Assembly (NCBI GenBank): GCA_965214605.1
Contig: OZ243961.1
Span: forward strand, 3,168,001-3,232,000
Origin: an uncultured Candidatus Binatia bacterium
GTDB taxonomy: Bacteria > Desulfobacterota > Binatia > Bin18
Direction of reading: 5' to 3'
DNA length: 64,000 nt
Shown: positions 47,659 through 59,853 of the stretch, in pieces
Position numbering within the stretch: the first letter of the stretch is position 1
How the letters are laid out: each line of letters starts with the position of its first letter
The notes under the pieces: generated by a model
Seen by the model: only the letters and a program-made list of their open reading frames with translations
Databases searched by the model: none
What the model was told of the DNA's origin: nothing
Program-made: the position numbers and the translations under genes

Positions 47659-48378
47659 ATGTCAGACTTGAAACACCTGCCGGCGCTTGTTTCCTGGTCC
47701 TCGGGCAAGGACGCGGCCTGGGCGTTGCACACGCTGCGCTCGCAGCCCGATGTCTACGAGGTGCGCGGTATTTTTACCACGGTAACACGTGACCGCGTGG
47801 CGATTCAGGCTTCTCCGCTGCGGCTGCTGCGCTTGCAGGCCGAACGCCTCGCCCTTCCGCTGTACGAAATTCCCATTCCATATCCCTGCCCCAACAATAT
47901 CTACGAACGGGCGGTGGACGGGTTTCTCGACCGGGTCCGCAGATTGCCGCAGACCCTGAGCGCCTCAACGCTGGCCTTCGGCGACTTGTTCCTGGAGGAC
48001 ATCCGCGCCTACCGAGAAGCGCAGCTCGAGGGCACGGGTTTCACGCCGATCTTCCCCATCTGGGGCGAGCCGACGGAGGCGCTAGCCGAGCGGATGATCA
48101 CCGCTGGCCTGCGCGCTATTGTGACGGCCGTGAACACTACTCAACTCGATGGTGTGTTCGTCGGACGCTGGTTCGACCACGAGTTCCTCGCCGATCTGCC
48201 GTCTGGAGTTGATCCGTTGGGCGAAAACGGCGAGTTCCACACCTGTGTGGTTGACGGACCGATGTTCAGCACGCCAATTAAGGCGCGCCCAGGACGGCGA
48301 ATCAGGCGCGGCTTTGCGCTACCCGACGGAGCAACCGCGGGGGAGTACGTTTACACGGATGTGGAGCTCACGACCTAG
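47659..48378 (+). CDS. PP-loop ATPase, diphthine-ammonia ligase-like (ATP_bind_4) family
   Basis: 'SWSSGKD', 'FGDLFLEDIRAYRE', 'VDPLGENGEFHT.V.DGPMF'. Confidence 0.9.
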   Translation: MSDLKHLPALVSWSSGKDAAWALHTLRSQPDVYEVRGIFTTVTRDRVAIQASPLRLLRLQAERLALPLYEIPIPYPCPNNIYERAVDGFLDRVRRLPQTLSASTLAFGDLFLEDIRAYREAQLEGTGFTPIFPIWGEPTEALAERMITAGLRAIVTAVNTTQLDGVFVGRWFDHEFLADLPSGVDPLGENGEFHTCVVDGPMFSTPIKARPGRRIRRGFALPDGATAGEYVYTDVELTT

Positions 48379-50615: not shown

Positions 50616-51203
50616 TTACACCGAGGTGCTGGGTCGGGCTTTCATCGCCTCGTACCAGCGCGGCAAATTGGTCCAGGCCGGGTCAAGCCTGAACCCGCCT
50701 GTGTAGCGGCTGCTATGGGCGGTCTCAAGACCGATAAATAGCATGATATCGGCAATCGAGAATGCTCCGGCCAGCCACTCTTTGCCCGCTAAGCCGTCGT
50801 TGATAAGCGGCAAACGAGACATCAACACACCTTTGGCGTGATCTGAGACCTCACCTTTGGACAGCACCATACGCGAGGCGGTGAGATACACCCCAATTTC
50901 ACACCGACGCTCCCAGGCCCGAACCTGAGCGCGGCTGACCGCATCGGTGCCAATGAGGGGTGGGTCGGGATAGAGTTCCTCGAGGTATTCCATGATCGGG
51001 AGGGTCTCTGCCAACACGGTTCCGTCGTCGAGTTCCAGGATGGGCACTCCGGCAAACGGATTCTTGGCCAGGAACTCGGGGGCTTTTTGCTCGCCCGCAT
51101 ACAAATCCAACTCTTTGATCGGAAGGTCGAGTTTCTTTTCGGCCAGATAGATGCGGACTTTTCGTGGGTTGGGGGCACGCTTTGTATCAAGATAGAGTAG
51201 CAT
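50616..51203 (-). CDS. Glutathione S-transferase family protein
   Basis: 'APNPRKVRIYLAEK', 'NPFAGVPILELDDG', 'SIADI'; start at ATG 51203. Confidence 0.9.
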   Translation of the reverse strand: MLLYLDTKRAPNPRKVRIYLAEKKLDLPIKELDLYAGEQKAPEFLAKNPFAGVPILELDDGTVLAETLPIMEYLEELYPDPPLIGTDAVSRAQVRAWERRCEIGVYLTASRMVLSKGEVSDHAKGVLMSRLPLINDGLAGKEWLAGAFSIADIMLFIGLETAHSSRYTGGFRLDPAWTNLPRWYEAMKARPSTSV

Positions 51204-51262
51204 GGGCCAGTCCTCTCTGTGGAGTATTTTGGGGCTGAATAGTGTAATTTTCGTCACTCCCA

Positions 51263-51306
51263 TTGTGTATTGCAATAGTTGACACAAGCTGGGCAATCAA
51301 TAGAAT
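51263..51306 (+). promoter_or_regulatory. Sigma70 promoter of the ATP-grasp/egt operon with dyad operator
   Basis: TTGACA (51279-84)-16nt-TAGAAT (51301-06); palindrome TATTGCAATA (51268-77) and TTGTGT..ACACAA dyad overlapping the -35 box. Confidence 0.6.
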
Positions 51307-51370
51307 GCCGGGGCGCAGAGTGGGAGGGGGATTCTCGCTGTGCTCCGAAGCGGACGGAGGTTTTAGCCCT

Positions 51371-52576
51371 ATGGAGGTATTCATCACCTGTCCCTCACAG
51401 AGAGACCGAGACGCTATTACTGATCTCAGCGACCATAACTTCCACCTACTCGACGCGCCGCTCAACCCCCGTACCCCTTCGCCCGAGCTTGATCTGCTGG
51501 CCTATATTGATCAGTGCCGGGATTACATTCGCACGCATCATATCGACGCTATTTTTTACTCGCGGGATGTGGCCGATTTGGTCGCTGCCGCCCTGTGTGA
51601 GGAGTTTGGCTTTCCCGGTCCGAGTGTAGAGTCGGTCTTTCTGTGCCTGCACAAATATTATGGTCGCCGAGCCGAGCCCAACCCGATCCGTTGTCAGGCC
51701 ATTGACCTACACGACCCAGACCCCTCGGTCGCGGTCTACCCGTGCTACCTCAAACCGCCGTGGCTGAATCTGGGTATTCTAGGATTTAAGCTCGAATCCG
51801 CGGCCGACCTCGACCGGGCACTGCGGATTGCGCGCCGAGAGTATCCGGCCTGGTCGCCGCTCTACACGCCGTTTTTCGAGCGTTATGTTGATCTCGAAAA
51901 ATATCCCCTGGCCGTCCGAGATATGATGTTGGTCGAAGAGTTTGTTGACGGTCCTCAGGTGACGGTCGAGGGTTGGGTATACGATCAACAGCCCCACTTG
52001 TGGGCAATTACCGATACCAACACGTATCCTGGAACGCGGGTGATCGATAATTTTTCCCTGCCCTCGCGTCATCCCGCCCATATTCAAGCCGAACTTAAGC
52101 GGCAGGCATGTGCTGCGATTGGCAGCGTGGGCCTGGACAACGGATTTTTTAACATTGAGTTCTGGTGTCACAACGACGGGGTGACCCTGACCGAGGTCAA
52201 CGGCCGAGCTGCAACCTGTTTTTACCGTTTGTACCGCACGTGTTTGGATGCCTGTATTTATGAGGCCGGTCTGACTCTGGCCAGTGGCCAGCCGCCCCGC
52301 CTGAACACAGCGTGTCGCAATGTGGTCGGCGGCCAGTTCAACCTGATTACCTTTGCCGAGGATACGGCCGAAAATCTGCTTGACCACGAGCAGGCCCGTA
52401 CCATTCCCGGCATGACGATTTATTTTGAACCGGGCAGCCAGGTGAGACAGATGAGCGAGTTCGGTATTGTCCTGGGCCAGATTGATCTGTTTGGTGACAG
52501 CTACGAAGAGATTCACGCCCAAGCCGAAGCCATGCGGCGGCGGCTGCTCAAAAGACCCGAGATGTCACCGCGGTAA
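51371..52576 (+). CDS. ATP-grasp domain ligase (amino-acid ligase-like)
   Basis: 'HKYY', 'YPCYLKP', 'MLVEEFVDG..VTVEG', 'GFFNIEF', 'EVNGR'; GGAGG RBS, ATG 51371. Confidence 0.88.
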   Translation: MEVFITCPSQRDRDAITDLSDHNFHLLDAPLNPRTPSPELDLLAYIDQCRDYIRTHHIDAIFYSRDVADLVAAALCEEFGFPGPSVESVFLCLHKYYGRRAEPNPIRCQAIDLHDPDPSVAVYPCYLKPPWLNLGILGFKLESAADLDRALRIARREYPAWSPLYTPFFERYVDLEKYPLAVRDMMLVEEFVDGPQVTVEGWVYDQQPHLWAITDTNTYPGTRVIDNFSLPSRHPAHIQAELKRQACAAIGSVGLDNGFFNIEFWCHNDGVTLTEVNGRAATCFYRLYRTCLDACIYEAGLTLASGQPPRLNTACRNVVGGQFNLITFAEDTAENLLDHEQARTIPGMTIYFEPGSQVRQMSEFGIVLGQIDLFGDSYEEIHAQAEAMRRRLLKRPEMSPR

Positions 52577-52578
52577 AC

Positions 52579-53409
52579 ATGTGTCGCTTGATTACCTACC
52601 TCGGGCCCGAGATTCGGCTTGAACGCGTTGTGAGCGAACCAGAGCACTCGCTGGTGGTACAGAGCTACCGGCCGCAGGAGATGACGGCTGGGGTGGTCAA
52701 CGCCGACGGCTTTGGCTTGGGGTGGTACAACCCACAGCTTGAGCCAACGCCGTGTGTGTATACCAATACCTGTCCCATCTGGAGCGATCGCAATTTGCCC
52801 GGACTAGGCCACCACATTGCGGCCGGGTGTATTTTTGCCAACGTGCGCAGTGCCACCCCGGGTCAGGCGGTGGACCACAGCAATTGCCAGCCGTTTGCCT
52901 ACCAACGTCTGCTGTTTATGCATAACGGCTTTATTGAGAACTTCCGTCACACTCTGATGCGGCCAATTCGAGATGCCCTGCAGGACACGTATTACACCGC
53001 TATCCAGGGTTCGACCGACTCGGAACATATCTTTGCCCTGCTACTCCAGTTTTTGCACGGCCGCGAGTGCACCCAACACAATGTGCTCCTCGCGATGCGG
53101 GCCGCAATCGAACAGCTCGGCCGCTGGGCGGCACCAGCCCGCACGCCGCTGGTCCTCAATCTGGCGCTGACAAACGGCGAGTTTGTCGTTGCCAGCCGTT
53201 TTGCCTCAAGCTCTCCGGCGCCCTCTTTGTACTACGCGTGCGATACCGCCGAATTTCCCCGGGCCGGCCTGCTCGCCTCGGAGCGTCTGTTTGCCAGCCG
53301 GGCGTGGCACGTGGTGGAGGAAGATCGGCTGATCGCTTTTGATGCCCGGCTTCGGCCGGACTGTGTCACGCTCCAGCCGGGAGGGGAGACGACTCGTGCC
53401 TCAGGCTAA
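52579..53409 (+). CDS. egtC: Ergothioneine biosynthesis Ntn-hydrolase EgtC
   Basis: N-terminal 'MCR' nucleophile, 'HSL.VQSY.P.EM..G.VNADGFG.GWY', 'VRSAT', 'HNG', 'TDSE'; adjacent to egtB. Confidence 0.9.
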   Translation: MCRLITYLGPEIRLERVVSEPEHSLVVQSYRPQEMTAGVVNADGFGLGWYNPQLEPTPCVYTNTCPIWSDRNLPGLGHHIAAGCIFANVRSATPGQAVDHSNCQPFAYQRLLFMHNGFIENFRHTLMRPIRDALQDTYYTAIQGSTDSEHIFALLLQFLHGRECTQHNVLLAMRAAIEQLGRWAAPARTPLVLNLALTNGEFVVASRFASSSPAPSLYYACDTAEFPRAGLLASERLFASRAWHVVEEDRLIAFDARLRPDCVTLQPGGETTRASG

Positions 53410-54721
53410 TTCCCATCCCACCCCGTCCCAGCCAGACCGTCTGCTTTTACGCGCCCGGTTTCTTGAGTCGCGCCGCCAGACACTCGGCCTGTTTGCCGAC
53501 GTCAGCGAGGCCGACTTCCGGCGTCAGGCGCATCCCGACTTTAGCCCGGTAGGTTGGCACCTGGGTCATATCGGGGTAACCGAAGAGTACTGGGTCTTAC
53601 AGCGGTGCGAAGGCCAGGGCTGCCTGTCCGAAGACTACGAGCGGTTTTTTTCGCCGACCGAGAATCCGAAAACGAATCGAATCCATCTCCCCAACCGCTC
53701 CGACATCCTGGCCTATCTCGACACAGTCCGGGAAAAAACGTTGGCTGTCCTCGACCGAACCGACTTTCCCCAGTCCCACTCGCTTTTGCAGCAAGCGCGG
53801 ATCTTTCACATGCTGCTCCAGCATGAAGCCCAGCATCAGGAAACCATTACCCTGGTGCTTCAGCTGTTGGCTGCCAGCCAGGACCAGCCGGACCGGTACT
53901 GTGAACCGAGAGGGAACGAGGGTGAAGACGGTCTGACTGACAAGATGGTACACGTCCCGGCTGGTCCTTTTCTGATGGGTAGTAATAGGCTGGATGAGAC
54001 GCTGGACAACGAGCGCCCACAGCACGAGGTGGATGTTGGCGAGTTTTGGATAGATCGCTATCCGGTGACCAACGCCCAGTTTCTGCACTTTGTCCAGGAC
54101 CGTGGCTACCGCCGGCGGGTTTGGTGGAGCGCTGAGGGCTGGGCGTGGCGGGAGAAAAACGCGATCGAACACCCCCGCTACTGGCGCCGGCAGCGGAATG
54201 GCGAGTGGGCCCTGCTCGGCCTGTCACCTTCCCGGACCCTTGCCCCTGATCATCCGGTGATGGGGGTCAGCTGGTATGAGGCTGAGGCGTATGCCCGAGC
54301 GGCGGGCAAGCGTCTGCCGACCGAGGCTGAGTGGGAAAAGGCGGCGTCCTGGGACCCGGAGCGTGGCCACAAGCGAGCCTATCCCTGGGGGGCCGCTCAA
54401 CCCAATCCACAGCACTGCAATAGCGACGCACGCCAGGACGGGACGAGCCCGGTTCAGTACCATCAGGCTGGTGCCAGCGCCTATGGCTGTCTGGATATGC
54501 AGGGCAACGTGTGGGAGTGGACCGCAACCTGCTTTCAACCCTATCCGGATTTTCGCGCCTATCCCTACGACGGCTATTCGGTACCATATTTCGACCATCA
54601 ACATCGGGTCTTGCGGGGCGGCTCGTGGGCGACACGGAGCTCTGTCCTGCGACCGACCTTTCGCAACTGGTATCACCCCTGGATCCGAGAAATCTTTGCC
54701 GGTTTTCGGTGCGTAACATAG
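53396..54721 (+). CDS. egtB: 5-histidylcysteine sulfoxide synthase EgtB-like (DinB + FGE-sulfatase domains)
   Basis: 'SPVGWHLGH', Fe ligands 'HEAQHQE', 'DNERPQH', 'RLPTEAEWEKAA', 'GNVWEW', 'YSVPYF', 'RNWY..IFAGFRC'; GTG start 53396. Confidence 0.88.
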   Translation: MPQANSHPTPSQPDRLLLRARFLESRRQTLGLFADVSEADFRRQAHPDFSPVGWHLGHIGVTEEYWVLQRCEGQGCLSEDYERFFSPTENPKTNRIHLPNRSDILAYLDTVREKTLAVLDRTDFPQSHSLLQQARIFHMLLQHEAQHQETITLVLQLLAASQDQPDRYCEPRGNEGEDGLTDKMVHVPAGPFLMGSNRLDETLDNERPQHEVDVGEFWIDRYPVTNAQFLHFVQDRGYRRRVWWSAEGWAWREKNAIEHPRYWRRQRNGEWALLGLSPSRTLAPDHPVMGVSWYEAEAYARAAGKRLPTEAEWEKAASWDPERGHKRAYPWGAAQPNPQHCNSDARQDGTSPVQYHQAGASAYGCLDMQGNVWEWTATCFQPYPDFRAYPYDGYSVPYFDHQHRVLRGGSWATRSSVLRPTFRNWYHPWIREIFAGFRCVT

Positions 54722-54735
54722 CTCCACAATACCTC

Positions 54736-55728
54736 ATGGATACCCCAACCACTGCTGATAATCGTCTCTATATCTCCTATCCGGTCTCTGCCCTGCCCCG
54801 CTTTCGCGAGGACGTGATCGCTGGGCTGAGTGCTACTCGAAAATCTCTTCCGCCGCGCTATTTTTATGATCGGTATGGCTCAGAGCTCTTTGAGCAGATC
54901 TGTCAACAACCCGAATATTATCCGACTCGGACCGAAGCCGTGCTGATGCGTCAGCGGGCTTCCGAGGTGCTCGACCTCGTCGGCCAGTGTACCCTGGTCG
55001 AACTCGGGAGCGGGAGCGCGGTCAAAACTCGCCTGCTCCTAGACGAGTACCGGCGTCGCGGCTACCCCATGCACTATGTTCCGATCGATATCAGCACCTC
55101 AATGTTACGCGAATCGGCCGAGAGGCTGATCGCCGACTATCCCGAGTTGTCTATCCAAGCCCTGGCCACCGACTATCTCAACGGCCTGGCCGCGCTCCCA
55201 TACGCCCGACAACGTTTGGTCCTGTTTTTGGGCAGCAATCTGGGCAATTTTGACGATGCTGAACAGGCCGAGCTGTTTGGCCGACTAGCGGCCGCGCTCC
55301 AGCCCCAGGATTATTTTCTGCTCGGCCTCGATCTCAGAAAGCCGGTCGATGTCCTAGAGGCCGCCTATAATGACGCGGCCGGAGTAACGGCCGCCTTTAA
55401 CCTCAATATGCTGCGCCGCATCAACCGCGAATTCGGCGCCAATTTCAATCTGTCGCAGTTTAACCACCTGGCCTTTTATAACCGCGCCGAGCACCAGATT
55501 GAAATGCACCTGCAGAGTCAGGTTGCCCAGGAGGTTGAGATTGCCGAGCTGGGCCTCCGGGTGTCCTTTGAGTCCCAAGAAACGATCCATACCGAGATCT
55601 CGCGCAAATTTGACGCCGACCAAGTGGCGGCTCAGCTCCGGTCGTACGGCTTTGATGCGTGTGCGCGATGGACGGATGAGCGTGGCTGGTTCTTAATGAC
55701 TATCTTTCGTTTTGTCGGAAGCCGATAA
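54736..55728 (+). CDS. egtD: L-histidine N(alpha)-methyltransferase EgtD
   Basis: 'KSLPPRYFYD..GSELFEQIC..PEYYPTRTE', 'ELGSGS..KT', 'FLGSNLGNF', 'AYNDAAGVTAAFNLN', 'IHTEISRKF'. Confidence 0.93.
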   Translation: MDTPTTADNRLYISYPVSALPRFREDVIAGLSATRKSLPPRYFYDRYGSELFEQICQQPEYYPTRTEAVLMRQRASEVLDLVGQCTLVELGSGSAVKTRLLLDEYRRRGYPMHYVPIDISTSMLRESAERLIADYPELSIQALATDYLNGLAALPYARQRLVLFLGSNLGNFDDAEQAELFGRLAAALQPQDYFLLGLDLRKPVDVLEAAYNDAAGVTAAFNLNMLRRINREFGANFNLSQFNHLAFYNRAEHQIEMHLQSQVAQEVEIAELGLRVSFESQETIHTEISRKFDADQVAAQLRSYGFDACARWTDERGWFLMTIFRFVGSR

Positions 55729-55751
55729 AAGGAGAACGGTGCTCTCTTGTC

Positions 55752-56777
55752 ATGCGAGGGACCACAAAAAAGCCCCGACTCGTCCTGATTGCGGCCAGTG
55801 GGACGATCAGCATGCACAGAGGGGGGGACGCTGATGGCCACGAGTTCAACTCCTCGTCCACCACTGGCCAGAACATATCGACCTGGACGGCTGCCGACCT
55901 GCTGGCCCAAACCTCACTCCGAGGCCAGTTACGCGTACGCCCCATTGACTTTGTGCCACCGGGCGGTGTCTATCCCGACAACGTCCTAGCCCTGGCCCGT
56001 CGGATTCGGACCGCGGCGACGCCGTCCATTGACGGCATTGTTGTCAGCCACGGCACTGACGCCATGGAGGAGGCCGCCTACGGCGTGGACGAACTCGTGT
56101 CCGTCCCGGTCCCGATTGTCTTCACCGGCGCCATGCGACCCGGCTGGGCCAGCGGCTATGACGGGATTCGGAATCTCGACAACGCGCTGCGGATCGCTAG
56201 CCTGATCCCGCCCGCCTATGGTACCCTGGTCACCCTCAACGATCAGATCTTTGAGGCTTGGAGTGTGTCTAAAGCCGACACCGGGGCCTTGGACGCCTTC
56301 AGCGCGCGCCGGGGGGCGCCGTTTGGGCAGATTGTTGGGGATCAGGTCGAGTGTACCTGGCGGCCGGTCACTCGGCCACGTCTGGGCCGGATTCCAAGAG
56401 ACGTCCCCACCTCGGTACCGATTCTGACCATGGGGTTGGCCGAAGACGCGGCAGTGCTCGACGGTCTGGCCGCGGGCCAGATACAGGGGCTGGTCATTGC
56501 TGGCATGGCGACTGGTACGATTCCTGCCCGGGCCTACGAAAAAGTACTCCGGCTGGCTAAAAGCGGCCTGCCGGTTGTCCTGTGCTCAAGCGCCGCCAGC
56601 GGTTGGACCGCGGCTGAGTATTACTATCCCCATGCCTACGATACCCTGCGGGCGGCCGGGGTGCTGATTGAGGACCATTTGTCCGCCCGGAAAACCCGTC
56701 TGCGTCTGATGCTGTGCCTAGGCCTCGGCGTGCCGTATGTGCCATTTGGCCACGAGTTTGTTATCAGGGCGGAATGA
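55752..56777 (+). CDS. Asparaginase/glutaminase-fold amidohydrolase (divergent)
   Basis: 'SGTIS', 'HGTDAMEE', 'TGAMRP', 'DG..NL', 'SKADT', 'KTRLRLML'. Confidence 0.85.
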   Translation: MRGTTKKPRLVLIAASGTISMHRGGDADGHEFNSSSTTGQNISTWTAADLLAQTSLRGQLRVRPIDFVPPGGVYPDNVLALARRIRTAATPSIDGIVVSHGTDAMEEAAYGVDELVSVPVPIVFTGAMRPGWASGYDGIRNLDNALRIASLIPPAYGTLVTLNDQIFEAWSVSKADTGALDAFSARRGAPFGQIVGDQVECTWRPVTRPRLGRIPRDVPTSVPILTMGLAEDAAVLDGLAAGQIQGLVIAGMATGTIPARAYEKVLRLAKSGLPVVLCSSAASGWTAAEYYYPHAYDTLRAAGVLIEDHLSARKTRLRLMLCLGLGVPYVPFGHEFVIRAE

Positions 56778-58051
56778 AGATGGCGGGTGCAGCTCCACGC
56801 AAGGGCAGGGCTGAGCCGTTTTTCTACGGCTGGTTTATTGTTGCTATCCTGTTTGTCGTTTCTATCATCGATGGTGGATTCACCTATATTTTTTCCGCCT
56901 TTCTCAAGCCTTTATCCGAAGAGTTCGGCTGGACCCGGGCGCAGACCTCGGGTGGCTTCTCCCTGTATCTGCTGGCGGCTGGTACGCTGCTGCCACTGTG
57001 GGGTTGGCTGGCTGACCGGGTCGGGGCACGTTTGGTTTTTCTGCTGAGTGCCCTGATTGATGGGATCGCACTGGTTCTGCTGAGCTATGTGCAAAGTCTG
57101 TTCGCGTTTTATTGCTTATATTTCTTTCTAGGCGCAGGACTGGCCGGGATTGCTCCGACTACGATTGGCAAGATCGTGTCCGAGTGGTTTGTGGCCAAAA
57201 GGGGGCGGGCCATGGGTATGGCCCTGGTCGGAGCCGGGGCGGGCGGGCTGGTACTGGTACCGGTGGCCGGATTTTTGATTGAGGAGTTTACCTGGCGGAT
57301 GGCCTATCGCTTGCTGGCCGCGCTGTCGCTGGGGGTGATGTTTCCCCTGGTGTTGTGCTTTCTGACCGATACGCCCCAGCAGAAAGGACTCTTGCCGCTC
57401 GGCCACGGCGGTCAGGTCGAACACGATGAGCCCGATCTGGTCCCGCCCGGCCAGCTCAACTGGACACTCGGCGCCGCGCTGCGAACGGCGACGTTTTGGT
57501 TGCTGAGCCTCGCCCTGTGCTGCGGGATTGGGGCGGCCATGTCGTTTAACGCCCATCAGGTCGCCCTGCTTCAGGACGCCGGCTTTTCGCTTGAGCTCGC
57601 CTCTTCGATTGCCGGCATTTCCCTGGGCATGAGCATGGGCGGGCGCTTTACGGTCGGCTGGATCAGCGAGTATCGGACTGACCCCCACACCTTGTTAGCC
57701 GTGTGTATGGGCGTACAGGCGATCGGGCTCGGCTTCCTCCTACTCATGCCTAGCCTCAGCAGCTGGGTGCTGCTCTTGGTCGTTCCGTTGTTTGGCCTGG
57801 GCTTCGGGGGTCTGGTCGTGCTGTGGCCCCTGACCATCGGCCATAACTTTGGGCTGAACGCTTTTGGTACGATTGGCGGAGTGATGGGGACGGTGGCAGT
57901 GAGTGTGATCGGAGCGGCGGGGCCGGTTGTGTTGGGCGCTCTCTATGACACAACCGGCAGTTATGACTGGGCGCTAGTGGTATGTATCGGAGTGTTGGTG
58001 ATAGGGGCGGGCGTAGCAAAGCTCACGCCCCTGCCACGCCCGTTTAGGTGA
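56774..58051 (+). CDS. MFS transporter (monocarboxylate/OFA-like)
   Basis: 'FYGW', about 12 TM helices, 'GWLADRVGAR', 'WFVAKRGRAMG', 'YDTTGSY'; ATGA overlap with upstream gene. Confidence 0.92.
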   Translation: MKMAGAAPRKGRAEPFFYGWFIVAILFVVSIIDGGFTYIFSAFLKPLSEEFGWTRAQTSGGFSLYLLAAGTLLPLWGWLADRVGARLVFLLSALIDGIALVLLSYVQSLFAFYCLYFFLGAGLAGIAPTTIGKIVSEWFVAKRGRAMGMALVGAGAGGLVLVPVAGFLIEEFTWRMAYRLLAALSLGVMFPLVLCFLTDTPQQKGLLPLGHGGQVEHDEPDLVPPGQLNWTLGAALRTATFWLLSLALCCGIGAAMSFNAHQVALLQDAGFSLELASSIAGISLGMSMGGRFTVGWISEYRTDPHTLLAVCMGVQAIGLGFLLLMPSLSSWVLLLVVPLFGLGFGGLVVLWPLTIGHNFGLNAFGTIGGVMGTVAVSVIGAAGPVVLGALYDTTGSYDWALVVCIGVLVIGAGVAKLTPLPRPFR

Positions 58052-58128: not shown

Positions 58129-59853
58129 TTAACCCCGACCGTGCCGCAACAGGCGACCCGGCGTGGCGTTTGTGCACTGGCCGTCCTCAAAGGTCACGTC
58201 GCCGTTAACCATAATCCAGCGATAACCGTCGGCCTTCTGGATCCGCCGCCACTCGCCACCTGGGAAGTCGTGCACGACCTCGGGTTTTTCAGGGGTAAGC
58301 TTGAGGTTTTCCAGATCGTACACCACGACGTCGGCCGAAGCGCCCGCGCGCAGGACGCCCCGATCCTGAAAGCCGGCACATTCGGCCGGCATCGCGCTCA
58401 GCCGATAGTGGGCCTCCTCAAGGCTCATAAAACCGGCATCGCGGACCATCCACGACAGCATATCGGTCGGATACGCGCCAATGGTGATGAACTTGGTGTG
58501 GGCACCGCCGTCCGACACCCCGGCCATGCTGTACGGGGAAGCCATCAGCTCGGCTGCATAGTCTTCGCGGACGTTGCGCGCCGGGGTGAGGAATTCGGTC
58601 TCTAGGTTATCCTCGACGGCAATATCGAACATTGCATCCATGGGATGCTTGTTTTCCATTTTGGCGACTTCTTCGACCGTCATTCCGACATATTTCTCGA
58701 ACTTCTTGTTGACGACGGATTCAATGGTGAACTCTTTGAAGGAGCCAGTGACAACCGGTGTGTGGCCGGTATCATACTCTGAGACCAGAGCCTGACGAAT
58801 GGCCGGGTTCTTGAGCTTTTCAAGCCGTTCGGCCGGGGTGCCAATGGTCACTTCACGTACGACATCATTCCCGTCAAAGAGTCCGGTGATTTCACCAAAA
58901 TTGAAGTACAAGCCCTGGCGCATTACCGCGGTCTGGTTATAGATCTTGCGGCCCGCTTTGTTGGTCTTTTCCATCCAGCGCAGAATACGGCGATGGATAC
59001 TAGGCCGGTCGTCACGTGTAGCGGTTGCATTGAACAAAATCGGTCGGCCAGACTCGTCGGCGAGACGGTCGTAGAACTTCATGTCTGCTTCAAAGTCCGG
59101 GCTGGCTTGGGTCAGCTGAATAAAGCCTTCTCCCCGCTCCTTTAACACCCGCCCAAAGATGAGCACATCTTCGTCCGCCATCGTGTCCGTTACCATCGGG
59201 GTGCCGTCGTAGTCGCGTTGGACAGACACAAAGCCGTCACCCAAGCGCTGAGCCGAGAATCCACAGCCCCCGGCATCCATTGATTCACTCAGAATCTGGC
59301 ACATGGTCTGTTTTTCTTTGTCGGTGGCCGGACGACTCTTTGCCGCCTCTAGACCCATAGTCCAGATCATAATCGGGGCAATAGGAACAAAGCTCAGGAC
59401 GTTGATCCCTTTGGGGGTCTGGTCAAGAAAGTCCAGCCATTCGGGAAAGGTCACCCAGTCCCACTTCATCCCGGCCTTCATCGACTCGAACGGAATGGCT
59501 TCAACCCGAGACATGGTCAACATGGCTCGCTCGCGCATCTCAGGCTTCACCGGGGCAAAACCAAAGCCACAGTTACCGACCACGATGGAGGTTACTCCGT
59601 GCCAGCCGGACAGCGTGACGTAGGGGTCCCAGTTAATCTGGGCGTCATAGTGGGTGTGGAGATCAATAAACCCCGGAGCAACGACGAGACCGTTGGCATC
59701 CAGGGTCTTTTGGGCATCGCTGGGTTTGAGCGTGCCGGGTTGTTCGATCTGCGCAATCTTACCGTCCTTGATCCCGATGTCTCCGATGTAACGGGGGTGA
59801 CGGGTGCCATCGACAATCGTACCACCTCGAATGAGCGTATCAAAAGTTGCCAT
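58129..59853 (-). CDS. N-acyl-D-amino-acid deacylase family amidohydrolase
   Basis: 'IRGGTIVDGT', 'APGFIDLHTHYD', 'GNCGFG', 'SDGGAH', 'PGRLLR'. Confidence 0.9.
   Translation of the reverse strand: MATFDTLIRGGTIVDGTRHPRYIGDIGIKDGKIAQIEQPGTLKPSDAQKTLDANGLVVAPGFIDLHTHYDAQINWDPYVTLSGWHGVTSIVVGNCGFGFAPVKPEMRERAMLTMSRVEAIPFESMKAGMKWDWVTFPEWLDFLDQTPKGINVLSFVPIAPIMIWTMGLEAAKSRPATDKEKQTMCQILSESMDAGGCGFSAQRLGDGFVSVQRDYDGTPMVTDTMADEDVLIFGRVLKERGEGFIQLTQASPDFEADMKFYDRLADESGRPILFNATATRDDRPSIHRRILRWMEKTNKAGRKIYNQTAVMRQGLYFNFGEITGLFDGNDVVREVTIGTPAERLEKLKNPAIRQALVSEYDTGHTPVVTGSFKEFTIESVVNKKFEKYVGMTVEEVAKMENKHPMDAMFDIAVEDNLETEFLTPARNVREDYAAELMASPYSMAGVSDGGAHTKFITIGAYPTDMLSWMVRDAGFMSLEEAHYRLSAMPAECAGFQDRGVLRAGASADVVVYDLENLKLTPEKPEVVHDFPGGEWRRIQKADGYRWIMVNGDVTFEDGQCTNATPGRLLRHGRG

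What the first reader, a model, noticed from the sequence alone, without database searches (positions are those of the whole stretch)
51371..52576. ATP-grasp ligase as a candidate new gamma-Glu-Cys (or other X-Cys) ligase
Seen: intact ATP-grasp motifs (LKP, EEFV.G, E.N.R) and coupling to egtC. Known: EgtC is only needed when the sulfur donor is N-acylated, and characterised gamma-Glu-Cys ligases are not ATP-grasp proteins. Inference: this enzyme may make the acyl-cysteine that EgtC later cleaves, which would be a convergent enzyme class.
Basis: inference. Interest (0 to 1): 0.7.

Follow-up and report, generated by a model that had tools for sequence, protein, structure and literature searches.

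The report
Orphan amino-acid ligase heading ergothioneine operon
An uncharacterised ATP-dependent ligase shaped like the dipeptide-forming L-amino-acid ligases opens an otherwise standard ergothioneine operon in one family of Binatia bacteria; it is probably not the missing glutamate-cysteine ligase, but its sister enzymes are fused to a thiol-oxidising enzyme, so it likely works on a cysteine-derived compound.

Summary
Bases 51371-52576 encode an intact 401-aa ATP-grasp protein, 2 nt upstream of a bona fide egtC, then egtB, egtD and a divergent asparaginase.

The interpretation as a new gamma-Glu-Cys ligase is mostly disfavoured:
- The genome has a plant-type Glu-Cys ligase and GshB; that ligase occurs in 146 of 151 sampled Binatia genomes, including all 19 of the window's family.
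- Three sampled genomes of two sister families carry egtC-egtB-egtD with no ATP-grasp, and their EgtB shares two aligned EgtB motifs with this family's.
- One distant genome keeps a 76%-identical ATP-grasp without any EgtC.

The predicted fold is that of L-amino-acid (dipeptide) ligases (Z 33.5), far from GshB (14.4) and RimK (16).

The sister subfamily (48-56% identity, Acidobacteriota) never sits by egt genes. It lies beside, and in five proteins is fused to, a PCO/ADO thiol dioxygenase, followed by a BshC-like protein. That is independent support for a cysteine-derived substrate.

Best reading (about 0.35): an amino-acid ligase forming an amide on cysteine or a cysteine-derived intermediate, gained together with the divergent asparaginase. 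The substrate is unknown. The published NHISS/ATP-grasp clusters (JACS 2026) use a different, RimK-like ligase class.

The parts
50616..51206 (-). Glutathione S-transferase family gene, divergent from the operon. It is conserved upstream in 37 of 44 close loci, at a variable distance. It is one of 13 GST paralogues in the genome.
   Evidence: Pfam GST_N_2/GST_N_3/GST_N; tblastn of loci; paralogues
51279..51306 (+). Promoter-like site TTGACA-16-TAGAAT in the GST/ATP-grasp intergenic region. This is a consensus match only.
   Evidence: 11 of 12 matches; 4 sites found in the region against 2.7 expected
51371..52576 (+). ATP-grasp ligase, 401 aa, with an L-amino-acid-ligase-like fold. This is the finding.
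52579..53409 (+). egtC, a class II (Ntn) amidohydrolase that starts with Met-Cys.
   Evidence: TIGR03442 273.2 bits against cut-off 218.65; PDB 3mdn and EgtC 4zfj
53339..54721 (+). egtB, a sulfoxide synthase of type I kind. The coordinates give the maximal ORF and the true start is uncertain; the family match begins at ORF residue 38.
   Evidence: TIGR03440 389.6 against 360; 311 bits to MthEgtB 4x8b against about 151 to type II 6o6l/6qki
54736..55728 (+). egtD, histidine N-alpha-methyltransferase.
   Evidence: TIGR03438 389 against 290.9; Pfam Methyltransf_33 385.5 bits
55752..56777 (+). Divergent asparaginase-family amidohydrolase. It is the only one in the genome. Within the class sample it occurs in exactly the same 18 family genomes as the ATP-grasp.
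   Evidence: Pfam Asparaginase and Asparaginase_C; far below NCBIfam cut-offs (130.7 against 314.3)
56774..58051 (+). MFS transporter. Its ATG overlaps the asparaginase stop. It is not a conserved part of the cluster: among the fetched loci it follows the cluster only in L005.
   Evidence: Pfam MFS_1 149.6 bits; ORF table

Best explanation
The gene encodes an ATP-grasp amide ligase of the L-amino-acid-ligase structural class. Such enzymes phosphorylate the carboxylate of one amino acid with ATP, then let the amino group of a second substrate attack the acyl phosphate, giving an amide plus ADP and Pi.

In one family of Binatia it was added to a canonical, gamma-glutamylcysteine-dependent egtC-egtB-egtD core, together with a divergent asparaginase-family amidohydrolase. 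I think it most likely joins an amino acid to cysteine or to a cysteine-derived pathway intermediate (an X-Cys or Cys-X type amide). That would create an extra or alternative substrate pool around the EgtB step, with the asparaginase-like enzyme as the matching amide-cleaving partner. It does not replace the housekeeping Glu-Cys ligase.

Shown here: the fold, the intact catalytic motifs, the operon arrangement, the distribution, and the link of the sister subfamily to a thiol dioxygenase. Inferred: that the substrate is cysteine-derived, the identity of the second substrate, and any role for the asparaginase.
For: - Fold: VIA-align places L-amino-acid ligases on top. BL00235 3vot scores Z 33.5 (349 aligned, rmsd 3.0), BacD 3vmm 30.7 and RizA 4wd3 27.6. 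PurK, PurT and PurD score 23-25.6, RimK 16.0-16.8, BesA 16.1 and GshB 14.4. Foldseek agrees, with 3vot at E 5.5e-22 and TM 0.77.
- The catalytic Lys, Glu, Asn and Arg are invariant.
- Operon: among 44 close loci (65-89% identity), egtC follows in 41 of the 42 with room, and the asparaginase follows egtD in 37 of the 38 with room.
- In most of these loci (for example L008-L031) the ATP-grasp is better conserved (about 72-75% identity to the window) than EgtC (56-64%), EgtB (46-53%), EgtD (56-65%) or the asparaginase (48-54%).
- Class sample of 151 genomes: the ATP-grasp is in 18, all of one family, and in 0 of 132 genomes of 18 other families. The same 18 genomes carry EgtC and the low-scoring asparaginase.
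- Sister subfamily (48-56% identity, Acidobacteriota): a PCO_ADO thiol dioxygenase is adjacent in 19 of 21 loci. A 428-aa protein is adjacent in 18 of 21, including three loci with a divergent gene order.
- Five fused ATP-grasp+PCO_ADO proteins of 591-608 aa exist, 55-73% identical in the dioxygenase part.
- The 428-aa partner resembles BshC best (Z 13.0, 290 aligned, rmsd 5.0); the next hit scores 9.9.
- The egt-linked and PCO-linked ligases form two separate groups in a quick tree, with supports 94 and 100.
Against: - No substrate was tested, and nothing in the sequence identifies cysteine.
- The egt linkage rests on one GTDB family (3 genera), so it may reflect a single ancestral arrangement.
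- PCO/ADO enzymes are known (recalled) to need a free amino group next to the thiol. Type I EgtB uses N-acylated cysteine. One common product for both contexts is therefore not obvious.
- In the sister trio the BshC-like protein, not the ATP-grasp, could be the enzyme that handles cysteine.
- L006/G001 keeps a 76%-identical ATP-grasp with neither EgtC nor the asparaginase nearby.
- The asparaginase is the only one in the genome, so it could be a housekeeping gene.
- More distant relatives (33-38% identity) sit in polysaccharide or outer-membrane contexts with no thiol link.
Confidence: 0.35

Rival explanations
1. One reading: the ATP-grasp is a convergent gamma-glutamyl-cysteine ligase (an EgtA substitute) that makes the donor which EgtB uses and EgtC later deglutamylates.
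For: - It occupies the first position of the operon, 2 nt before egtC.
- EgtB is of the gamma-GC-using type I kind: 311 bits to 4x8b against about 151 to type II.
- No egtA lies in the cluster.
- ATP-grasp enzymes that make gamma-glutamyl amides do exist, for example TgiB (PMC13674229, sections read).
Against: - A plant-type Glu-Cys ligase (TIGR01436, 444.5 bits) and GshB are in the genome.
- That ligase is found in 146 of 151 class genomes and in all 19 of the family (the count includes unpublished G238).
- egtD/egtC/egtB clusters in families f3 and f89 lack the ATP-grasp. Their EgtB has the same PK..R and FRNWY motifs.
- G001 keeps the ATP-grasp but has no EgtC; the best match is 34 bits.
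- The fold is closest to alpha-dipeptide ligases.
- There is no match to GCS2, Glu_cys_ligase, GSH-S_ATP or RimK at E 0.01 or better.
Confidence: 0.1
2. A tailoring enzyme. The ligase modifies hercynine, ergothioneine or a late intermediate, for example by amidating its carboxylate with an amino acid. The operon's end product would then be an ergothioneine conjugate, by analogy with the thiohistidine dipeptides actinothioneine and thioglutine.
For: - There is precedent that ATP-grasp enzymes next to NHISS genes act on the thiohistidine product (PMC13674229; abstract, Results and Conclusion read).
- Every ATP-grasp-bearing genome examined outside the window's own family also has EgtD. G001 scores 320.7 bits. 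G002-G005 score 353-369 bits. All 12 of 12 ATP-grasp-positive Thermoanaerobaculia genomes have it, against 68 of 139 negatives (the counts include unpublished G430, G403 and G305, all of them ATP-grasp-negative).
- The asparaginase could trim or recycle such a conjugate.
Against: - EgtD trimethylates the alpha-amino group, so the published N-acylation chemistry cannot apply. Only the carboxylate would be free.
- The sister subfamily is linked to PCO_ADO and a BshC-like gene, never to its genome's NHISS or EgtD genes.
- The published enzymes are RimK-like and their NHISS partners are OvoA-like. Neither holds here.
Confidence: 0.2
3. Neighbour by descent only. The ligase makes an unrelated dipeptide or small amide (an osmolyte, a signal or a cell-envelope decoration), and it sits next to the egt genes because of one ancestral rearrangement in this family.
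For: - The linkage is confined to one family.
- L006/G001 shows the gene can move and persist without the egt genes.
- Relatives at 33-38% identity are in polysaccharide (Wzx/Wzy) or outer-membrane-protein contexts.
- The wider family is large and has varied fusion partners.
Against: - There is a 2-nt gap to egtC and no terminator-like site at that junction.
- The arrangement is kept while the Egt proteins have diverged to about 50-60% identity.
- The ligase is gained and lost together with EgtC and the asparaginase in the sample: G301 lacks all three.
- The sister lineage is again tied to cysteine-thiol oxidation.
Confidence: 0.2
4. A two-part amidotransferase. The asparaginase-like protein would release ammonia from Asn or Gln, as GatD does, and the ATP-grasp would use it to amidate a carboxylate.
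For: - The ATP-grasp and the divergent asparaginase have identical distributions in the class sample: the same 18 genomes.
- The asparaginase scores far below the family cut-offs.
- Its scores are lower than those of other Binatia asparaginases: 114-147 bits against 164-215.
Against: - The two genes are separated by three others.
- G001 and the whole sister subfamily lack the asparaginase next to the ligase.
- No ATP-grasp ammonia ligase of this subclass is known to me (recalled).
Confidence: 0.05

Closest known systems
L-amino-acid ligases (BL00235 of Bacillus licheniformis, PDB 3vot; BacD/YwfE, 3vmm/3wnz; RizA, 4wd3)
   Same: - Same three-domain ATP-grasp architecture over the whole length: Z 33.5, 30.7 and 27.6, with 346-377 residues aligned.
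- Same catalytic Lys, Glu, Asn and Arg.
- Same Pfam family, ATP-grasp_4.
   Different: - Only 12-16% identity in the structural alignments.
- These entries are not found by sequence search of the PDB.
- The substrates are unknown.
- The gene context is ergothioneine or thiol-dioxygenase genes rather than dipeptide-antibiotic clusters.
Glutamate-cysteine ligases (EgtA TIGR03444, plant-type TIGR01436 / Pfam GCS2, GshA Pfam Glu_cys_ligase)
   Same: It occupies the operon position that egtA holds in the mycobacterial cluster (order recalled). It is an ATP-dependent carboxylate-amine ligase.
   Different: The fold and family are unrelated, with no match at E 0.01 or better. A genuine plant-type ligase is encoded about 98 kb away in the same genome.
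TgiB and AshB, the ATP-grasp enzymes of NHISS/ATP-grasp clusters (thioglutine, actinothioneine; Abbott et al., JACS 2026, PMC13674229)
   Same: An ATP-grasp ligase encoded beside a non-heme-iron sulfoxide synthase.
   Different: - TgiB is from the RimK Pfam and the other ligases of their network are described as RimK-like, apart from subfamily 14 (YbdK-like). They partner with OvoA-branch NHISS enzymes that use histidine, not hercynine, and they acylate the free amino group of 2-thiohistidine.
- Here the ligase is Lal-like (RimK only Z 16), the NHISS is a type I EgtB, and EgtC and EgtD are present.
- I could not see their supplement. I therefore cannot say whether any Binatia cluster is among their roughly 100 instances.
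Mycobacterial egtABCDE ergothioneine pathway
   Same: egtC, egtB and egtD are equivalog-level members. EgtB aligns best with the gamma-GC-dependent MthEgtB.
   Different: There is no egtA or egtE in the cluster. An ATP-grasp and an asparaginase-family gene are added. MthEgtB Asp416 is Tyr in all 44 Binatia EgtBs examined (43 loci plus the window); the role of that residue is recalled, not read.
BshC / MshC cysteine-adding enzymes of bacillithiol and mycothiol synthesis (relevant to the sister subfamily's partner gene)
   Same: The 428-aa protein next to the sister ligases has BshC as its best structural match (4wbd, Z 13.0, 290 aligned). CysRS scores 8.3 and MshC 7.9, lower down the list.
   Different: It has no sequence-level match in Pfam or NCBIfam and no Foldseek hit at E 0.001 or better. 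It is absent from the window's genome.

Membership tests
ATP-grasp superfamily | Nucleotide-binding Lys, adenine hinge (EEF/Y), Mg-binding Glu/Asn, and the Arg that stabilises the acyl phosphate. | tested here: met
   K128, E189/E190, E263, E275, N277 and R279 are present; all but E190 are listed as invariant in 16 homologues. Pfam ATP-grasp_4 scores 30.1 bits against cut-off 27.
L-amino-acid ligase structural class (BacD, RizA, BL00235) | Full-length three-domain fold closest to solved L-amino-acid ligases. | tested here: met
   3vot Z 33.5, 3vmm 30.7 and 4wd3 27.6, above PurK, PurT and PurD at 23-25.6. Foldseek gives 3vot E 5.5e-22.
L-amino-acid ligase structural class (BacD, RizA, BL00235) | ATP-dependent formation of an alpha-dipeptide from two unprotected L-amino acids. 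| not testable with these tools
   This needs an enzyme assay.
Glutamate-cysteine ligase (EgtA, GCS2, GshA) | Membership of Pfam GCS2 (PF04107) or Glu_cys_ligase (PF04262), or of NCBIfam TIGR03444 or TIGR01436. | tested here: not met
   Neither library lists any of these for the ATP-grasp at E 0.01 or better. The genome's real member lies elsewhere.
Glutamate-cysteine ligase (functional class) | It is needed because no other Glu-Cys ligase is available to an EgtC-type pathway. | tested here: not met
   A plant-type ligase is in all 19 family genomes and in 146 of 151 of the class. Sister clusters work without the ATP-grasp.
RimK-like NHISS-associated ligases (TgiB; AshB tested as part of the same network) | RimK Pfam membership, and an OvoA-branch NHISS partner that uses histidine. 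| tested here: not met
   There is no RimK hit at E 0.01 or better. RimK structures score Z 16.0-16.8 against 33.5 for L-amino-acid ligases. The partner is a TIGR03440 EgtB with EgtD alongside.
Glutathione synthetase (GshB) | Pfam GSH-S_ATP, or closest fold 1gsa. | tested here: not met
   No Pfam hit. 1gsa scores Z 14.4 at rank 44. The real GshB is elsewhere in the genome, at 228.9 bits.
Canonical EgtC-dependent ergothioneine cluster (the neighbours) | EgtC, EgtB and EgtD each above the equivalog cut-off. | tested here: met
   273.2 against 218.65; 389.6 against 360; 389 against 290.9.
Canonical EgtC-dependent ergothioneine cluster (the neighbours) | A PLP C-S lyase (EgtE) to finish the pathway. 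| not tested
   None lies in the cluster. The genome was not searched for one.

The most novel reading that the evidence does not exclude
The ATP-grasp and the divergent asparaginase form a second make-and-break pair, parallel to EgtA/EgtC. The ligase would build a non-glutamyl acyl-cysteine, for example beta-aspartyl-cysteine, that EgtB can use, and the asparaginase-like enzyme would strip the acyl group afterwards. The sister subfamily, fused to a PCO/ADO thiol dioxygenase and paired with a BshC-like protein, would make an undescribed cysteine-derived sulfinate or low-molecular-weight thiol in Acidobacteriota. Together they would define a new ligase family dedicated to cysteine-derived small molecules.
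Probability: 0.12. Interest if true: 0.8.

Novelty: new variant of a known kind. Interest (0 to 1): 0.5.

Why it matters
Ergothioneine pathways are thought to be fully accounted for by EgtA-E or EgtB/D. Accessory ligases next to sulfoxide synthases were linked to new thiohistidine products only in 2026, and only for RimK-like enzymes.

This is a different ligase class, conserved at about 74% identity while its Egt neighbours drift to about 50-60%. Its sister enzymes are physically fused to a bacterial PCO/ADO-type thiol dioxygenase, an enzyme family for which I recall no assigned bacterial substrate and for which one search of the papers found nothing relevant.

Finding the substrate would:
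- assign a function to a family of several hundred environmental proteins;
- possibly reveal a new cysteine-derived metabolite or an alternative sulfur donor for ergothioneine;
- give the first functional handle on bacterial PCO/ADO and on BshC-like proteins outside Firmicutes.

If it turns out to be only a neighbour, the operon is an ordinary egtCBD cluster.

Tried and rejected
- Expression: no RNA holder was listed for window 51000-57000. Five DNA holders from 2 studies were listed.
- Complex prediction of the ATP-grasp with the asparaginase: no verdict, scores 0.00 and 0.00.
- ESM Atlas on the 428-aa partner gave only unnamed or unrelated clusters at 0.90-0.91.
- Foldseek on the 428-aa partner gave no hit at E 0.001 or better. 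The BshC match came only from VIA-align.
- Earlier scan notes by place and by sequence returned nothing.
- Papers for the EgtB donor-binding residues: two searches and one 'find' gave nothing usable. The roles of Arg87, Arg90 and Asp416 are therefore recalled from Goncharenko et al. 2015, which I did not read here.
- Context of more distant relatives: the metagenome scan returned 6 loci. Two (L093, L097) are outgroups in polysaccharide or outer-membrane-protein contexts, two are again the PCO-linked type, one (L094) is a 34%-identical relative on a short contig whose context was not examined, and one is weak. None was informative about the substrate.
- A careful maximum-likelihood tree did not finish in 300 s. 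Only the quick tree, rooted at its midpoint, is used.
- I considered whether the fusion to PCO_ADO was a gene-calling artefact, because P0123 is a singleton cluster. I rejected this after finding four further fused proteins at 55-73% identity.
- The supplement of PMC13674229 was not seen. Whether Binatia clusters appear in its network therefore remains open.
Full report
**What is there.** Bases 51371-52576 (+) hold an uninterrupted 401-codon frame. A GGAGG lies about 9 nt before the ATG. A promoter-like TTGACA-16-TAGAAT lies at 51279-51306, although such sites are not enriched in the region (4 found, 2.7 expected). K128, E189, N261, E263, E275, N277 and R279 are invariant in an alignment of 16 homologues that go down to 50% identity. 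Pfam finds only ATP-grasp_4, just over its cut-off (30.1 against 27 bits). NCBIfam gives only a weak hit to the ATP-grasp part of a fusion family. Sequence search of the PDB finds only 4dim, a structural-genomics entry.

**The operon.** The stop codon is 2 nt from the ATG of the next gene. Downstream on the same strand come EgtC, EgtB and EgtD, each above its NCBIfam equivalog cut-off. After them come an asparaginase-family gene and an MFS transporter whose ATG overlaps the asparaginase stop. A GST gene is transcribed divergently upstream.

**Fold.** An AlphaFold2 model built on the 16-sequence alignment is confident (pLDDT 88.8, pTM 0.86). In an all-against-representatives structural search the three solved L-amino-acid ligases lead: 3vot Z 33.5 (349 residues, rmsd 3.0), BacD 30.7 and RizA 27.6. 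Then come 4dim (27.6) and the purine enzymes PurK, PurT and PurD (23-25.6). RimK (16.0-16.8), the gamma-glutamyl ligase BesA (16.1) and glutathione synthetase (14.4) are far lower. Foldseek gives the same order at the top. The enzyme therefore works like a dipeptide-forming amino-acid ligase: an acyl phosphate on one carboxylate, attacked by an amine. It is not a member of any glutamate-cysteine ligase family.

**Is a new Glu-Cys ligase needed? The evidence says no.**
- The window's genome (99.99% complete) encodes a 460-aa plant-type glutamate-cysteine ligase about 98 kb away. It scores 221.8 bits on GCS2 and 444.5 bits on TIGR01436, just under that model's cut-off of 463. The genome also encodes a glutathione synthetase.
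- In an even sample of 151 genomes of the class, this ligase is found in 146, including all 19 of the window's family (one of the 146, G238, is flagged unpublished).
- In the same sample the ATP-grasp is found in 18 genomes. All belong to one family (17 of its 18 other members plus the window's genome; 3 of 4 genera). It is in none of 132 genomes of 18 other families.
- EgtC above its cut-off occurs in those same 18 genomes, and also in G081 (family f3) and in G219 and G283 (family f89), which have no ATP-grasp.
- Their loci show egtD, egtC and egtB alone. No ATP-grasp, asparaginase, GST or GCS2 gene lies within about 7-8 kb.
- I aligned the window's EgtB with 47 others. Positions matching MthEgtB Arg87 and Arg90 read Lys and Arg (xxPKxxR..LP). 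The position matching Asp416 reads Tyr (FRNWY.P). This is the same in all 40 EgtBs from the window's family besides the window's own and in the three ATP-grasp-less sister EgtBs. That these residues bind the glutamyl part is my recollection of the 2015 structure paper, which I could not read here.
- The window's EgtB is closest to the gamma-GC-dependent MthEgtB: 311 bits against about 151 for type II enzymes.

Taken together, the core pathway here looks like an ordinary gamma-glutamylcysteine-dependent one supplied by the housekeeping ligase.

**How firmly is the ligase tied to the egt genes?** A scan of one genome per species returned 66 loci.
- Forty-four encode a protein 65-89% identical to the window's.
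- In 41 of the 42 that have room, egtC follows directly.
- In 37 of the 38 with room, the asparaginase follows egtD.
- A GST lies upstream on the other strand in 37 of 44, at distances from 0.2 to about 5 kb.
- In most of these loci (for example L008-L031) the ligase is the best conserved protein of the operon, at about 72-75% identity to the window. EgtC is at 56-64%, EgtB at 46-53%, EgtD at 56-65% and the asparaginase at 48-54%.

The exception is L006. Its ligase is 76% identical and nests inside the egt-linked clade, but no egt gene lies within 8 kb. The flanking genes of L006 match the window's genome at only 28-34% identity. That genome's EgtD and EgtB-like proteins match at 41% and 34%. 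It uses an E. coli-type GshA and has no EgtC (best 34 bits). This looks like a horizontally acquired ligase that persists without EgtC. It argues against a role that depends on EgtC.

**The asparaginase.** It is the only member of its family in the genome. In the class sample it occurs in exactly the 18 genomes that have the ligase, and always inside the cluster. Its Pfam scores (114-147 bits) are lower than those of the asparaginases found in other families (164-215 bits). The ATP-grasp-less egt families f3 and f89 have none (0 of 3 and 0 of 2). The ligase and this divergent amidohydrolase were therefore gained together on top of an egtCBD core. All of this is one family, so it probably counts as one event.

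**The sister subfamily is the most informative result.** Twenty-one loci from Thermoanaerobaculia and other Acidobacteriota encode ligases 48-56% identical to the window's.
- None has egt genes nearby.
- In 19 of 21 a PCO_ADO-family thiol dioxygenase (Pfam 78.8 bits) is adjacent.
- In 18 of 21 a conserved 428-aa protein follows.
- In L055, L059 and L063 the genes are kept together but in a divergent orientation. A metagenome contig repeats the trio.
- A profile search of 1.84 billion representatives found as its second-best hit a 591-aa protein that is a ligase fused to PCO_ADO. Four more such fusions, 55-73% identical in the dioxygenase part and from different sources, show that the fusion is real.
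- The 428-aa partner has no Pfam or NCBIfam match, but it folds confidently (pLDDT 87.8). Its best structural match is BshC, the cysteine-adding enzyme of bacillithiol synthesis (Z 13.0, 290 residues aligned, rmsd 5.0). The next hit is at 9.9, with cysteinyl-tRNA synthetase (8.3) and MshC (7.9) further down.
- The window's genome has neither gene.
- In a quick tree the egt-linked and PCO-linked ligases form two separate groups, with supports 94 and 100 (the careful search did not finish, and the root is at the midpoint only).

This ligase family therefore sits beside an O2-dependent iron enzyme that oxidises a cysteine-type thiol in two phyla: EgtB in one, PCO/ADO in the other. That is the main reason I keep a cysteine-derived substrate as the best guess.

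**Limits of that inference.** PCO/ADO enzymes, as I recall them, need a free amino group beside the thiol. Type I EgtB takes N-acylated cysteine. The two contexts therefore do not point to one identical product. At 52% identity the two clades may differ in one substrate. In the trio the BshC-like protein may be the one that handles cysteine. All four Thermoanaerobaculia genomes first examined, and all 12 ligase-positive genomes of a 151-genome class sample, also encode EgtD. Of the ligase-negative genomes, 68 of 139 do (three of the EgtD-positive, ligase-negative genomes are flagged unpublished). This leaves room for a link to ergothioneine itself, but kinship and genome size confound it. More distant relatives (33-38% identity) lie in unrelated contexts.

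**Comparison with print.** A full-text search for 'ergothioneine' with 'ATP-grasp' found one directly relevant paper, Abbott et al., JACS 2026 (PMC13674229). I read its abstract, Results and Conclusion. It reports about 100 NHISS/ATP-grasp clusters in at least six phyla. Apart from subfamily 14 (YbdK-like), the ligases of the network are described as RimK-like or homologous to TgiB, a RimK-Pfam protein, and the NHISS partners all lie on the OvoA-like branch. The partners tested use histidine, not hercynine. The products are X-2-thiohistidine dipeptides, acylated on the free amino group. The present cluster differs on each point: a Lal-like ligase, a type I EgtB, and EgtC plus EgtD. EgtD blocks that amino group. 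I could not see the supplement, so I cannot exclude that a Binatia cluster is in their network. Searches for 'Binatia' with 'ergothioneine' (0 papers) and for 'cysteamine dioxygenase' with 'ATP-grasp' (1 irrelevant paper) found no description of either arrangement. I did not test whether it is related.

**Verdict.** The specific interpretation, a convergent gamma-Glu-Cys ligase required by EgtC, is unlikely (about 0.1). The broader idea, a ligase acting on cysteine or a cysteine-derived compound, remains the best single reading (about 0.35). Product tailoring (0.2), mere neighbourhood (0.2) and an amidotransferase pairing with the asparaginase (0.05) remain as rivals. It is a new variant within the now-known theme of ligases attached to thiohistidine pathways. 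The unexpected part is the fused and BshC-partnered sister subfamily.

Noticed in passing
L050:7941-11138 (also L045-L066, L095): A conserved trio in Thermoanaerobaculia and other Acidobacteriota: the sister ATP-grasp ligase, a PCO_ADO thiol dioxygenase and a 428-aa BshC-like protein. Five natural ligase+dioxygenase fusions exist (P0123, P0272-P0275). No function is known, and I found no description in print with my two searches.
   Followed up: partly
L006:7269-9206 (genome G001): A 76%-identical copy of the ligase with a partial GST sits in a distant genome. The flanking genes are 28-34% identical to the window's genome. That genome has an E. coli-type GshA and EgtD but no EgtC. This is probably a horizontal transfer of the ligase without the egt operon.
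   Followed up: partly
L064:311-4505: In this relative the order is ligase, egtC, egtD, asparaginase. No egtB is detectable between egtC and egtD, which are about 110 nt apart.
   Followed up: no
window 55752-56777: The asparaginase-family protein keeps the Thr, Thr-Asp and Lys motifs, but no conserved Tyr is seen in the loop after the first Thr across 11 orthologues. The residue roles are recalled from E. coli asparaginase II. It scores far below the NCBIfam asparaginase cut-offs.
   Followed up: partly
P0143, P0159, P0162, P0164, P0168, P0172, P0252: More distant relatives of the ligase (25-36% identity) occur fused to other domains: an FAD-dependent N-hydroxylase-like domain, an SMP-30/gluconolactonase domain, or an acyl-CoA:6-APA acyltransferase-like domain. 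This suggests a broad, unexplored natural-product ligase family.
   Followed up: no
window 58129-59853 (-) and 47659-48378 (+): An Amidohydro_3 family hydrolase (574 aa) lies just downstream on the other strand, and a diphthamide-synthase-like (Diphthami_syn_2) gene lies upstream. The hydrolase keeps its place in the two closest relatives (L004, L005) and the diphthamide-synthase-like gene in L004 only; neither is kept in the wider set.
   Followed up: no
window 56001-58000: A strong negative AT skew (-0.261) coincides with the MFS transporter gene. This is probably the usual T-rich coding strand of a membrane protein.
   Followed up: no
L067:8001-8613: A Thermoanaerobaculia locus matches only residues 42-254 of the ligase and has no dioxygenase nearby. 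It may be a gene fragment.
   Followed up: no
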